From: Trypanosoma brucei
Taxonomy: Eukaryota
Direction of reading: 5' to 3'
Length of the DNA stretch: 64,000 bases
NCBI GenBank assembly: GCA_000002445.1
Contig: CP000068.1
Coordinates: 1,184,001-1,248,000, forward strand
The notes under the pieces are model-generated. The model was not told where the DNA came from. It ran no database searches and saw only the letters and a program-made list of their open reading frames with translations. Made by a program: the position numbers and the translations under genes. How positions within the stretch are numbered: the stretch's first letter is position 1; every line of letters starts with the position of its first letter. Positions 52,331 through 53,764 of this stretch are shown here, in pieces.

Positions 52331-53764
52331 ATGGCACAGGGCAAAGCTGCTTTTTTACTAATATTGTGTGTTTGCTCCTGCTGGCACCTCTCTTCAGCGG
52401 ACACAGAAGCGATCAAGGAAACAGCAATCAGAGAAGTGTGTGAGCTTTCAAAAACATTGAAAGGCACACCCTTTGCCATAACTCAGAGATGGAAACATAT
52501 CGAGGCCTTGATTTCGACCTTTGAGAGGTTGCTGCGAAGACTGGAGTTAATTAACCTTCTGTGCTGTGAAGACGAAGATAGCGTAAGCATTTTGAAACTC
52601 TACACCCAAAGCCAGATTGCAAGTTTAGAAGTGCTAATGAAGGCTCTTATGGAAAGGGGACCGAACGCCGCGGCGTTCGCGGCATACGCAGCAGGGAGGT
52701 TGGATGAGTTTGTTGCCGTATTCACGCAGTCGGTGGGGAAGACACCGCGAACAAACGCGTGCGTAATTGCGGATTCCGGCATGAGAAGGTGGGACCAGGC
52801 AGCGGCGAATGGATGTGAGCATAACGTAGTGGGAAACGCGGCTCAGAATTTCCTTGATTTGGAAGTCTTATTGAAAACGACATTGTTGACAAGAGGAAAC
52901 CAAAAGGGAGAAAGCAAGCAGTGCCCACTAACAAAGAGCGATTTGAGTGGCTATGCGACGGTGGACGACGCCCCTGACAGAATAAAGTGGGCAGGCGGGC
53001 TTTTGACCGTACACAAAATGTATGGATGGAAAGAAGACGGATGGTCTACAAACGGAAGGAACGTCGAATTCATCAAAGAGGCGGCAGAACAATTCAAAGA
53101 AATTAAAAAAGTCCTCGAGAAACAGCTGCCGAACGGCCTTGACAGCATCGACGCACTAAACGCTTTTTTGAAAAGGGAAGAGCCGGACGCGATGATGAAA
53201 GATGCAATCAAAACGCACCAGGGGTGGGAAGAAGAGAAAGACGATAAAACGATAATTGAGAAAATCAAGGAGATATTTGGAATTGGGGAACCATGTGCAA
53301 AGATTGAATTTATCGAAACGCTTATAAGGACTAATGTTTCTGCTAGAGAATCGGGCTGCACAAAGCAAATTGACTTGTTTCAACTCACTACTCGGCAAAT
53401 GGAAGAAGTAAAGGAACGCCGCCTCGATCAATTACGTAAAACGAAGACAGAAGCGGAGAATTATCCACGGGACATGGCAAAATTGTCGGCATTAAAAACT
53501 AATACAAACACAAAGCAAGGTGAGTACGGAGAGTGCCAGTTTCTATGCAAGCGATACAAGAACGCTAAAGCAGAAAACGAGGCAACGGATGCCGCACCCA
53601 ACTCTCCGGCAGCAGCAAGGAAGTGTCGTGGGAAAACGGAAAACGATTGCAAAGATGAGTGCAAATGGGACGGAAATGTCTGCAAAAATTCGGACGAAAC
53701 ATCAGATTACTCCAGAGTGTGTTACTCCCCTCTTTTTCCAGTCTTACTTCTTTCCTTATTTTAG
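52331..53764 (+). CDS. VSG-related surface glycoprotein: signal peptide, VSG-like N-terminal domain, VSG-type C-terminal cysteine motif and a non-canonical hydrophobic GPI-signal tail
   Basis: N-terminal signal MAQGKAAFLLILCVCSCWHLSSA. C-terminal CRGKTENDCKDECKWDGNVCKNS matches the T. brucei VSG C-terminal-domain motif (C..C...CKWE/D...CKDS). The tail SDYSRVCYSPLFPVLLLSLF is hydrophobic. Polypyrimidine tract 52255..52278 and AG upstream. Confidence 0.55.
   Translation: MAQGKAAFLLILCVCSCWHLSSADTEAIKETAIREVCELSKTLKGTPFAITQRWKHIEALISTFERLLRRLELINLLCCEDEDSVSILKLYTQSQIASLEVLMKALMERGPNAAAFAAYAAGRLDEFVAVFTQSVGKTPRTNACVIADSGMRRWDQAAANGCEHNVVGNAAQNFLDLEVLLKTTLLTRGNQKGESKQCPLTKSDLSGYATVDDAPDRIKWAGGLLTVHKMYGWKEDGWSTNGRNVEFIKEAAEQFKEIKKVLEKQLPNGLDSIDALNAFLKREEPDAMMKDAIKTHQGWEEEKDDKTIIEKIKEIFGIGEPCAKIEFIETLIRTNVSARESGCTKQIDLFQLTTRQMEEVKERRLDQLRKTKTEAENYPRDMAKLSALKTNTNTKQGEYGECQFLCKRYKNAKAENEATDAAPNSPAAARKCRGKTENDCKDECKWDGNVCKNSDETSDYSRVCYSPLFPVLLLSLF

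What the first reader, a model, noticed from the sequence alone, without database searches (positions are those of the whole stretch)
52331..53764. Chromosome-internal VSG-related gene with a VSG-type C-terminal cysteine knot but an aberrant GPI-signal tail
The C-terminal CKDECKWDGNVCKNS block is the hallmark of T. brucei VSG C-terminal domains. The protein is VSG-sized (477 aa) with a proper signal peptide. However, the usual post-omega-site tail (..SSILV.KKFAL.VVSAAFVALLF) is replaced by SDETSDYSRVCYSPLFPVLLLSLF, and I could not find the conserved VSG 3'UTR 16-mer downstream. It sits in the chromosome core next to a strand switch rather than in a subtelomeric array or expression site. This places it among the invariant VSG-related (VR) proteins rather than antigenically varying VSGs, possibly with a distinct anchoring or processing fate.
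Basis: partly seen in the sequence, partly recalled or inferred. Interest (0 to 1): 0.6.

Follow-up and report, generated by a model that had tools for sequence, protein, structure and literature searches.

The report
Known solitary VSG-like gene, tsetse-stage expressed

Summary
Window 52331..53764 (+) is an intact 477-aa ORF. It has a signal peptide, a full A-type VSG N-terminal domain (Pfam PF00913, E=7.5e-76), one VSG-type 4-cysteine C-terminal subdomain and a non-canonical hydrophobic tail. The window contains no VSG 3'UTR 16-mer, no 70-bp repeats and no other VSG remnants.

The protein is identical to XP_845069.1, "VSG, atypical, putative", of T. brucei TREU927 chromosome 5. Names and gene order identify it as Tb927.5.3990.

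It is not a decayed fragment. The ORF is intact in six strains and subspecies (98-100% amino-acid identity). pN/pS is about 0.2, and the CDS has no indels against 41 indel events in the flanks.

The literature already covers its regulation and expression. It is the model locus for base J/H3.V/PNUTS-PP1-dependent Pol II termination inside a transcription unit. It is near-silent in bloodstream, midgut and proventricular forms (2-4 RPKM) and reaches about 190 RPKM in salivary-gland parasites. Single-cell data place the peak in epimastigotes, the opposite of metacyclic VSGs.

"Invariant rather than switching" is supported. Membership of the curated VR family is not: the gene is A-type, labelled "atypical VSG", and its nearest relatives are ordinary archive VSGs at about 25% identity. 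Its protein function is untested. Novelty: already known.

The parts
52331..53764 (+). Complete CDS (477 aa plus stop) of the VSG-family gene, identified as Tb927.5.3990 / XP_845069.1, 'VSG, atypical, putative'
   Evidence: exact sequence match. PF00913, E=7.5e-76; intact in 6 strains, pN/pS about 0.2, no indels.
52331..52399 (+). Signal peptide, residues 1-23 (MAQGKAAFLLILCVCSCWHLSSA | DTEA)
   Evidence: Read from the sequence. SignalP values quoted for Tb927.5.3990 in the Savage 2016 supplement: NN D 0.89, HMM probability 1.
52400..53416 (+). A-type VSG N-terminal domain (to residue ~362) with the four class-A cysteines C37, C144, C162, C198 and the YAAGRLDEF motif
   Evidence: Pfam. Invariant columns in a 31-sequence alignment. 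AlphaFold2 model with long helices 30-77 and 79-133. Foldseek top hits are class-A VSG NTDs and ESAG6/7.
53624..53683 (+). VSG-type C-terminal 4-Cys subdomain (C432, C440, C444, C451; spacing C-x7-C-x3-C-x6-C)
   Evidence: Match to 2jwh ILTat1.24 CTD, E=2.3e-4. PF10659 scores 20.9 bits against a 21.4-bit cut-off. Same spacing as canonical VSG P0022.
53690..53761 (+). Non-canonical C-terminal tail, residues 454-477 (SDETSDYSRVCYSPLFPVLLLSLF): putative GPI-addition signal
   Evidence: Polar spacer plus 15-residue hydrophobic end, mean Kyte-Doolittle 1.96 against 1.8-2.5 for intact VSG tails. Identical in 5 of 6 strains, one R462G change. GPI attachment itself is inferred, not tested.
52260..52295 (+). 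Polypyrimidine tract (52260-52278) followed by AG dinucleotides (52290-52295), 36-41 nt upstream of the ATG: putative trans-splice acceptor
   Evidence: Read from the sequence. Inference only.
45989..52330 (+). 6.3-kb gap with no ORF of 200 aa or more between the uL15m gene (Tb927.5.3980) and the VSG-like gene. This is the interval in which the literature places the base J/H3.V peak and the Pol II termination zone
   Evidence: No long ORFs, tRNA genes, Rfam matches or VSG remnants. 95% identity to T. b. gambiense with 38 indel events.
54372..54845 (+). Short ORF corresponding to Tb927.5.4000 ('hypothetical protein'), the last annotated gene of the + unit and co-silenced with the VSG-like gene
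   Evidence: The ORF is frameshifted in both equiperdum assemblies, so its coding status is doubtful.
54846..55170 (.). Convergent strand-switch point, only about 325 bp between the stop codons of the two converging units

Best explanation
The ORF is Tb927.5.3990, a single-copy A-type VSG-fold gene in the chromosome 5 core that is conserved across the Trypanozoon strains examined.

Shown:
- It encodes a secreted-type protein with a signal peptide, a VSG class-A helical-bundle N-terminal domain and one VSG-type 4-Cys C-terminal subdomain.
- It is kept intact by purifying selection.
- It lacks the DNA elements that make a VSG a switchable coat gene (70-bp repeats, 3'UTR 16-mer, subtelomeric position).

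Shown by others:
- In bloodstream forms Pol II stops in the 6-kb gap upstream of it, at a base J/H3.V-marked site that depends on the PNUTS-Wdr82-JBP3-PP1 complex. This gene and the ORF after it are therefore nearly silent, and they are de-repressed when any of these factors is removed.
- In the tsetse its mRNA stays low in midgut and proventricular forms and rises about 50- to 120-fold in salivary-gland parasites. Single-cell data place the peak in epimastigotes rather than metacyclics.

Inferred:
- The protein is an invariant, probably GPI-anchored surface glycoprotein of salivary-gland epimastigote-type forms. It would be a coat component or a ligand-binding receptor, as in other VSG-fold derivatives such as the transferrin receptor. 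It is not an antigenic-variation VSG.
- Relief of the upstream termination, mRNA stabilisation, or both, produce the stage-specific expression.
For: Identity:
- Exact match to XP_845069.1/AAZ11510.1, 'VSG, atypical, putative', on the 1,608,198-bp TREU927 contig. Tb927.5.3990 has the same product name.
- The gene order 3980 (conserved hypothetical, here uL15m) - 3990 (VSG atypical) - 4000 (hypothetical) - 4010 (opposite strand) matches Reynolds 2014 Fig. 5.
- The 304-aa neighbour is 92.8% identical to T. b. gambiense; the published figure for Tb927.5.4010 is 92.7%.
- The GARP-family neighbour matches Tb927.5.4020.

Fold:
- PF00913, E=7.5e-76.
- The four invariant class-A cysteines are present.
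- AlphaFold2 model: pLDDT 78.5, pTM 0.69.
- Foldseek top hits are 2vsg, mVSG531, VSG2 and ESAG6/7 (E 5e-8 to 1e-5, target TM-score up to 0.68). Class-B VSGs score far worse.

Constraint:
- 477-aa ORF intact in 6 strains/subspecies.
- Against T. b. gambiense: 11 synonymous and 9 non-synonymous changes, pN/pS 0.22, P about 1e-3 against neutrality.
- 0 indel events in the CDS against 41 in 7.7 kb of flanks, where about 7.6 would be expected.

Not a switchable VSG:
- No 16-mer, no 70-bp repeats, no other VSG remnants in the window.

Regulation:
- Nuclear run-on, J/H3.V peaks and reversible de-repression on J loss.
- PNUTS, Wdr82, JBP3 and PP1-1 dependence.

Expression:
- Blood 1.56 vs salivary gland 193.9 RPKM; it is the first gene listed in that table.
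- Midgut 4.2, proventriculus 3.7, salivary gland 183.7 RPKM in triplicate.
- Single-cell least-squares means (LSMean): epimastigote 222, Meta1 57, Meta2 68, with P about 1e-18 and 5e-17.

Tail:
- Hydropathy is within the range of working VSG GPI signals.
Against: - No protein-level data were found. Surface location, GPI anchoring and even translation in salivary-gland forms are inferred.
- The tail has acidic residues next to every candidate omega site and two prolines in the hydrophobic stretch. No GPI predictor could be run.
- Midgut and proventricular forms, which per the literature lack base J, still express the gene at only about 4 RPKM. Loss of J alone therefore cannot explain the salivary-gland induction. 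The neighbours 4000 and 4010 rise too, which would also fit passive regional read-through.
- The epimastigote cluster of the single-cell study may mix several salivary-gland forms.
- The link from XP_845069.1 to the locus tag Tb927.5.3990 rests on name, gene order and neighbour identity, not on a database cross-reference.
Confidence: 0.72

Rival explanations
1. It is a member of the curated VSG-related (VR) gene family of Marcello & Barry.
For: It shares the positional hallmarks given for VR genes: chromosome-internal, at a strand-switch region, without 70-bp repeats (definition). It is conserved between subspecies, like other core VSG 'islands'.
Against: Every source names it 'VSG, atypical' or plain 'VSG', while VR genes carry '(VSG)-related'. 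It is A-type by Pfam and fold, with no B-type Pfam hit at E<=1. VR genes are described as similar in structure to T. congolense canonical VSG, which are b-type by my own knowledge of Jackson et al. 2012. The ten nearest relatives in 1.8 billion representatives are ordinary VSGnome entries. No VR sequence could be fetched for a direct tree.
Confidence: 0.12
2. It is an ordinary silent archive VSG that happens to sit in the chromosome core and serves as a donor for antigenic variation, for example for mosaic VSGs. This is the context in which the termination papers discuss it.
For: It has full VSG domain architecture. It is listed in the Lister 427 and EATRO1125 VSGnomes as VSG 625 and VSG 1125.382. 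Its nearest relatives are archive VSGs. Reynolds 2016 speculates that transcription of internal VSGs could promote gene conversion.
Against: It has no 70-bp repeats and no 3' 16-mer to provide conversion boundaries or bloodstream mRNA stability. The GPI signal is non-canonical. It is orthologous, syntenic and 98.6-99.6% identical across subspecies, whereas other VSG pairs between T. b. brucei and gambiense are only about 60-85% identical. It shows purifying selection. Its mRNA peaks in tsetse epimastigote-type cells, not in metacyclic or bloodstream forms.
Confidence: 0.08
3. It is a silent, decaying VSG pseudogene or fragment, and the salivary-gland transcript is read-through noise without function.
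For: It is nearly silent in bloodstream, midgut and proventricular forms. The neighbouring ORF Tb927.5.4000 rises with it and is itself frameshifted in two assemblies, as expected of regional read-through. It is labelled 'atypical' because it does not show every feature needed for VSG folding or modification.
Against: The full-length ORF is intact in six strains. pN/pS is 0.13-0.22 (P about 1e-3). There are no indels against about 7.6 expected. The flanking DNA diverges up to 2.7-fold faster (1.3- to 2.7-fold). About 190 RPKM in salivary-gland parasites is a substantial mRNA level, ranked just after the metacyclic VSGs among salivary-gland-induced genes.
Confidence: 0.08

Closest known systems
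Canonical class-A VSGs (e.g. ILTat1.24 2vsg, VSG2/MITat1.2 1vsg, metacyclic VSG531 8b3b)
   Same: Signal peptide. A-type N-terminal domain with the four conserved cysteines and the YAAGRxDEF motif. Same predicted fold. A 4-Cys C-terminal subdomain with identical cysteine spacing. Overall length.
   Different: Only about 13-26% identical. The first C-terminal subdomain is reduced to 2 Cys. The tail is non-canonical instead of the conserved 17- or 23-residue GPI signal. No 16-mer and no 70-bp repeats. It sits in a core Pol II transcription unit rather than a subtelomere or expression site. It is conserved between subspecies and expressed in salivary-gland epimastigote-type cells.
VSG-related (VR) genes of T. 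brucei
   Same: Chromosome-internal, at strand-switch regions, without 70-bp repeats, not part of the switching repertoire.
   Different: It is curated as 'atypical VSG', not VR. It is A-type rather than resembling T. congolense-type VSGs. Its nearest relatives are archive VSGs.
ESAG6/ESAG7 transferrin receptor and PAG proteins (A-type VSG derivatives)
   Same: Invariant proteins built on the A-type VSG N-terminal fold. ESAG6/7 rank second to fourth among the structural matches and match by sequence (E about 3e-4). PAG2 is the next gene after this one in the salivary gland vs blood table.
   Different: ESAG6/7 lack the VSG C-terminal domain and are expressed from bloodstream expression sites. 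No ligand is known for this protein.
Fam1 (Tb927.6.1310) VSG-like genes at a strand switch
   Same: A T. brucei-specific VSG-derived gene at a strand-switch region, with a signal peptide and predicted GPI anchor.
   Different: Fam1 is b-type derived, lacks the VSG C-terminal domain, forms a tandem array and is mainly bloodstream-expressed.
BARP, MISP and GARP-family salivary-gland or insect-stage surface proteins
   Same: Invariant surface proteins with helical-bundle ectodomains; MISP and BARP are described as triple helical bundles on salivary-gland forms. MISP360 and GARP appear as weak structural matches. A GARP-family gene (Tb927.5.4020) lies 4.3 kb away across the strand switch.
   Different: They are different sequence families and much smaller, without the VSG lobes or the VSG C-terminal domain.
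Genes silenced by termination inside a transcription unit (base J/H3.V/PJW-PP1)
   Same: This gene is the published example of the class.
   Different: Nothing differs. What the termination papers I read do not mention is its tsetse salivary-gland expression.

Membership tests
VSG superfamily, A-type N-terminal domain (PF00913) | Profile match above the curated cut-off over the whole domain | tested here: met
   256.2 bits against a 22.1-bit cut-off, E=7.5e-76, residues 9-362 on profile positions 2-361 of 367.
VSG superfamily, A-type N-terminal domain (PF00913) | Conserved class-A cysteine framework | tested here: met
   C37, C144, C162 and C198 are the only invariant columns in a 31-sequence A-type alignment, and all are present. 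The extra cysteines C78, C79, C322 and C343 are specific to this protein.
VSG superfamily, A-type N-terminal domain (PF00913) | Long helical-bundle fold of class-A VSGs | tested here: met
   AlphaFold2 pLDDT 78.5, helices 30-77 and 79-133. Foldseek top hits are class-A VSG NTDs, target TM-score up to 0.68, E down to 5e-8. Class-B VSGs give E>1e-3.
Functional, antigenically varying VSG gene | Complete VSG C-terminal domain (4 or 8 Cys) recognised by PF10659 | tested here: inconclusive
   One complete 4-Cys subdomain plus only 2 Cys upstream. PF10659 scores 20.9 bits, just below the 21.4-bit cut-off. 2jwh match E=2.3e-4.
Functional, antigenically varying VSG gene | Canonical conserved GPI signal (SS(I/F)L..KKFAL..VVSAAFVALLF or SNSFVI...LLLAVLLF) | tested here: not met
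   The tail SDETSDYSRVCYSPLFPVLLLSLF shares only the final LF and its general hydropathy with canonical tails.
Functional, antigenically varying VSG gene | Conserved 3'UTR 16-mer TGATATATTTTAACAC | tested here: not met
   0 matches with up to 3 mismatches in the whole window. The motif sequence is from my own knowledge.
Functional, antigenically varying VSG gene | Upstream 70-bp repeats | tested here: not met
   Tandem Repeats Finder finds only trivial short repeats in 45-58 kb.
Functional, antigenically varying VSG gene | Subtelomeric array, expression-site or minichromosome location | tested here: not met
   It is embedded among housekeeping genes of a Pol II unit (adenylate kinase, uL15m upstream; LSm, LysM protein across the switch). 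Listed as 'Chr5_core' in the 427 assembly.
VSG-related (VR) genes sensu Marcello & Barry | Chromosome-internal, typically at a strand-switch region, no 70-bp repeats | tested here: met
   definition quoted.
VSG-related (VR) genes sensu Marcello & Barry | Curated assignment or sequence affinity to the VR group | tested here: not met
   The product name is 'VSG, atypical' in all sources, while VRs are named '(VSG)-related'. The top 10 relatives are plain VSGs. It is A-type, while VRs are said to resemble T. congolense VSG. Caveat: no VR sequences were available for a direct tree.
Metacyclic VSG | Expression peaking in metacyclic forms | tested here: not met
   In the published single-cell table the epimastigote cluster is 3.3- to 3.9-fold above both metacyclic clusters. 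The four metacyclic VSGs are 7- to 36-fold the other way. The gene is in a Pol II unit, not a telomeric metacyclic site.
Genes silenced by base J/H3.V termination inside a transcription unit | Position at the 3' end of a unit, downstream of a J/H3.V peak where Pol II signal is lost | not testable with these tools
   The position at the 3' end of the unit behind a 6.3-kb gap is confirmed. J/H3.V peaks, run-on and read-through are taken from Reynolds 2014 and Kieft 2020/2024.
GPI-anchored surface protein | N-terminal signal peptide plus a C-terminal signal: small omega residue, polar spacer, terminal hydrophobic stretch with nothing after it | tested here: inconclusive
   The architecture is present and the hydropathy is in range. 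The source annotation quoted lists 0 TM domains and SignalP probability 1. The omega+1/+2 residues are acidic, and no GPI predictor or experiment was available.

The most novel reading that the evidence does not exclude
The textbook 'silent VSG' used to assay Pol II termination inside a transcription unit may really be a tsetse-stage gene. On this reading, the base J/H3.V/PJW-PP1 termination site upstream of Tb927.5.3990 is a developmental switch that opens specifically in salivary-gland epimastigote-type cells. It would release an invariant, GPI-anchored A-type VSG-fold protein, together with its fast-evolving surface-protein neighbour 4010, that acts in the fly, for example in attachment, ligand uptake or the sexual stages. 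That would be stage control at the level of transcription in an organism thought to lack it, and a non-coat function for an intact full-length VSG. The termination papers I read do not mention the salivary-gland expression, and the expression papers do not mention the termination site.
Probability: 0.3. Interest if true: 0.55.

Novelty: already known. Interest (0 to 1): 0.25.

Why it matters
As a discovery it matters little. The gene is annotated, its orthologues are known, its silencing mechanism has been dissected in at least four papers, and its stage profile sits in three public datasets.

The useful residue is a synthesis. The gene treated in the termination literature as a generic silent VSG is, in independent fly-stage data, one of the genes most strongly induced in salivary-gland parasites, and it is under purifying selection. 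That gives a concrete, testable case for developmentally regulated Pol II termination in trypanosomes. It also points to an uncharacterised invariant VSG-fold protein of the transmission stages.

Tried and rejected
- Word-indexed homology search returned only the orthologue cluster. The exhaustive HMMER search was needed to see paralogues.
- I looked for VSG 3'UTR elements with relaxed cores and found only chance-level hits.
- I looked for tRNA genes and Rfam families at the strand switch and in the gap and found none.
- I tested whether the 6.3-kb upstream gap hides decayed VSG genes or repeats of other window DNA. tblastn with more than 40 VSGs gave nothing (best E 0.11), and blastn gave no self-similarity.
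- I tested whether the odd tail was copied from the neighbour Tb927.5.4010, whose tail also ends LLLSIF. No inverted repeat or DNA similarity was found, so the resemblance is compositional only.
- Marcello & Barry 2007 could not be opened, so the VR definition is second-hand.
- The supplements of two single-cell papers held no entry for the gene.
- The MISP/BARP paper does not mention it.
- I rejected the pseudogene reading, the archive-donor reading and metacyclic-VSG status. Reasons are under the rivals and the membership tests.
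Full report
**1. The observation**

Its parts are:
- A classical signal peptide: MAQGK, then a hydrophobic core, then SSA|D.
- A full-length Pfam A-type VSG N-terminal domain: PF00913, 256 bits, E=7.5e-76, residues 9-362.
- A linker.
- A C-terminal block C432-x7-C440-x3-C444-x6-C451. It aligns to the solved ILTat1.24 VSG C-terminal domain (2jwh, E=2.3e-4) and has the same spacing as canonical VSGs such as P0022.

The Pfam C-terminal model scores 20.9 bits, just below its 21.4-bit cut-off. 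The subdomain that normally precedes this block is reduced to two cysteines (C402, C406).

The tail SDETSDYSRVCYSPLFPVLLLSLF is unlike the conserved VSG signals seen in relatives, such as ...CKDSSFLLNKKFALSVVSAAFVALLF or ...SNSFVI..APLLLAVLLF.

The DNA context is also as described:
- The 16-mer TGATATATTTTAACAC (sequence from my own knowledge) has no match with up to three mismatches anywhere in the 64 kb. Shorter cores give only chance-level hits elsewhere.
- No 70-bp-type repeats lie upstream.
- The + strand gene run (17..54845) meets - strand genes at 55171, so the gene sits at a convergent strand switch.

**2. What it is**

[quoted passage not shown] The same 90%-identity cluster holds 477-aa orthologues from T. 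b. gambiense DAL972, T. equiperdum OVI and T. b. equiperdum. It also holds 'VSG 625' (Lister 427) and 'VSG 1125.382' (EATRO1125).

I identify the gene as Tb927.5.3990 on four concordant grounds:
- Papers give Tb927.5.3990 the same product name.
- Reynolds et al. 2014 Fig. 5 lists the order 3980 (conserved hypothetical), 3990 (VSG, atypical), 4000 (hypothetical), 4010 (hypothetical), with 3990 and 4000 as the last two genes of the unit. That matches uL15m / VSG-like / 157-aa ORF / 304-aa ORF on the minus strand here.
- The 304-aa neighbour is 92.8% identical to its gambiense orthologue. The published value for Tb927.5.4010/Tbg972.5.4300, described as sitting at a strand switch with signal peptide and GPI site, is 92.7%.
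- The next gene (58055..58873, -) is a GARP-family protein (PF16731, E=4e-51), as published for Tb927.5.4020.

I did not see a direct cross-reference from the accession to the locus tag.

**3. Family placement**

An exhaustive HMMER search of 1.84 billion representatives found 42 relatives. The best non-orthologue is only 25% identical (E=1e-24). The ten best are all ordinary VSGnome or expressed-VSG entries, and none is labelled VR.

In a 31-sequence alignment the only invariant columns are C37, C144, C162 and C198, the class-A disulfide framework. All four are present, as is the YAAGRxDEF motif.

An AlphaFold2 model (pLDDT 78.5, pTM 0.69) shows the two long antiparallel helices (30-77, 79-133) and a small beta-hairpin in the C-terminal block. 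Foldseek against the PDB ranks class-A VSG N-terminal domains first (2vsg, mVSG531, VSG2, MITat1.1), together with the ESAG6/7 transferrin receptor (E 5e-8 to 1e-5, target TM-score up to 0.68). Class-B VSGs (VSG13, VSGsur) lie beyond E=1e-3.

So it is a bona fide, deeply divergent, solitary A-type VSG-family member. tblastn of more than 40 VSGs finds no other VSG remnant in the window.

**4. Decayed or maintained?**

The gambiense and both equiperdum loci are syntenic. The results point to constraint:
- The CDS aligns without a single gap to all three.
- Against gambiense there are 11 synonymous and 9 non-synonymous differences, giving pN/pS 0.22. The probability of so few non-synonymous changes under neutrality is about 1e-3.
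- The 7.7 kb of flanking non-coding DNA carries 41 indel events. About 7.6 would be expected in 1434 bp and none is seen, which by my arithmetic from the counts gives a Poisson P of about 5e-4.
- The upstream gap is only 95% identical, against 98.6% for the CDS.
- By contrast, the adjacent ORF Tb927.5.4000 is frameshifted in both equiperdum assemblies.

The VSG-like gene is therefore maintained by purifying selection. It is not turned over by gene conversion in the way the gambiense genome paper describes for VSGs elsewhere.

**5. The tail**

Aligning C451-K-N453 with the canonical C-K-D|SS junction puts the omega site at N453, leaving a 24-residue signal; D455 is an alternative. Either way the layout is a polar spacer (ETSDYSR) followed by a 15-residue hydrophobic end, with nothing after it.

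Mean Kyte-Doolittle hydropathy of the last 15 residues is 1.96, against 1.8-2.5 for intact tails of related VSGs. The source annotation quoted in the Savage supplement lists 0 TM domains and SignalP probability 1. The tail is identical in five of six strains.

I conclude it is a divergent but plausible GPI signal. This is inference: the acidic omega+1/+2 residues are unfavourable and no predictor could be run.

**6. How it is regulated (published)**

This locus is the model for termination inside a polycistronic transcription unit (PTU).
[quoted passage not shown] Nuclear run-on signal is lost there. J depletion causes read-through and reversible up-regulation.
- Later work shows dependence on H3.V, PNUTS, Wdr82, JBP3 and PP1-1, using this gene as the read-out. 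The PNUTS RNAi table lists it with a value of 2.15 (probably log2) at P=4e-33.

In the window, the only candidate interval is the 6.3-kb gap 45989..52330. It has no ORF of 200 aa or more, no tRNA gene, no Rfam match and no VSG remnant. A polypyrimidine tract (52260-52278) and AG dinucleotides (52290-52295) just upstream of the ATG would serve as a trans-splice site (inference).

**7. Where it is expressed (published supplements)**

| Study | Values |
|---|---|
| Telleria 2014 | Blood 1.56 vs salivary gland 193.9 RPKM (124-fold); first gene in the table and the only VSG differentially expressed in salivary-gland parasites |
| Savage 2016 | Midgut 4.17, proventriculus 3.66, salivary gland 183.7 RPKM (replicates 161.7, 203.7, 188.1); listed directly after the metacyclic VSGs |
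| Savage 2016, neighbours | Tb927.5.4010 up 4.8-fold and Tb927.5.4000 up 8.4-fold in salivary gland; the GARP-like 4020 is highest in midgut |
| Vigneron 2020 single-cell | LSMean: epimastigote 221.9, Meta1 57.2, Meta2 67.9 (3.9- and 3.3-fold, P=1e-18 and 5e-17); the four metacyclic VSGs are 7- to 36-fold the other way |
| Toh 2021 | Listed with AOX, HAP2/GCS1, CYC7 and PAD4/6/8 among transcripts unaffected in any of their RNAi and knockout lines during RBP6-driven development |

**8. Best explanation and rivals**

The best reading is an invariant, stage-specific VSG-fold glycoprotein of salivary-gland epimastigote-type forms. It is probably GPI-anchored. It is kept off in the mammal by premature Pol II termination, and it lacks the elements that would let it act as a switchable coat gene.

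Shown: the fold, the selective constraint and the missing VSG flanking elements (here); the termination control and mRNA stage profile (by others).

Inferred: translation, anchoring, surface location, any function, and whether relief of termination or mRNA stabilisation drives the induction.

One caution on the last point. Base J synthesis is lost in procyclic forms, yet midgut and proventricular forms still express only about 4 RPKM. Loss of J alone is therefore not the switch.

Rivals:
- **VR family member.** The positional features fit. The curated name, A-type fold and nearest relatives do not.
- **Archive donor VSG.** Contradicted by the missing conversion elements, the orthologous conservation and the expression profile.
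- **Decaying pseudogene or read-through noise.** Contradicted by the selection tests.

**9. Comparison, novelty, verdict**

It works like other VSG-fold derivatives that have left the switching repertoire: ESAG6/7, the PAGs and Fam1. Like BARP, MISP and GARP it is an invariant helical-bundle protein of fly stages. It differs in retaining a complete VSG architecture.

Everything factual about the gene is already public, so I rate it already known and of modest interest. One point may be worth a specialist's attention. The termination papers I read discuss this gene as a 'VSG' in the context of antigenic variation and do not mention its salivary-gland expression. The fly-stage papers do not mention the termination site. 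Joining the two suggests a concrete test of developmentally regulated Pol II termination.

Noticed in passing
window 45989..52330: A 6.3-kb stretch with no ORF of 200 aa or more lies between the uL15m gene and the VSG-like gene. It diverges faster than anything else nearby (95% identity and 38 indel events against T. b. gambiense). Strand composition flips within it: purine-rich on the + strand at about 46.5-49 kb, pyrimidine-rich at about 50-51.5 kb. The gambiense annotation places three small ORFs without Pfam hits here. It presumably holds the published J/H3.V termination zone, but no sequence feature was found that would define it.
   Followed up: partly
window 55171..56085 (-): The 304-aa protein matching Tb927.5.4010 has a signal peptide, a Cys-rich N-terminal part, a long acidic low-complexity region and a hydrophobic tail ending LLLSIF. 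It is only 92.8% nt identical to gambiense, with dense amino-acid replacements clustered in the Cys-rich part, which suggests fast or positive evolution. It is 4.8-fold up in salivary-gland parasites and has no Pfam match.
   Followed up: partly
window 54372..54845 (+): The ORF annotated as Tb927.5.4000, the read-out partner in the termination assays, is frameshifted in both equiperdum assemblies and has an in-frame 3-nt deletion in gambiense. It may not be a real protein-coding gene, or the assemblies may carry homopolymer errors.
   Followed up: partly
window 58055..58873 (-): A GARP-family gene (PF16731, E=4e-51) with a signal peptide and hydrophobic tail, matching Tb927.5.4020 (midgut-enriched). 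Together with 3990 and 4010 it makes this convergent strand switch a small island of fly-stage surface-protein genes.
   Followed up: partly
window 54846..55170: Only about 325 bp separate the stop codons of the two converging transcription units. Their 3'UTRs or read-through transcripts must overlap, the arrangement reported to give siRNAs at convergent strand-switch regions in T. brucei.
   Followed up: no
window 52562..52567 (residues C78-C79) and residues C322, C343: The protein has a Cys-Cys pair near the turn between the two long helices, and two further cysteines in the lower lobe, that are not conserved in other A-type VSGs. All are invariant in the six orthologues. They may form extra disulfides or an intermolecular link.
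   Followed up: no
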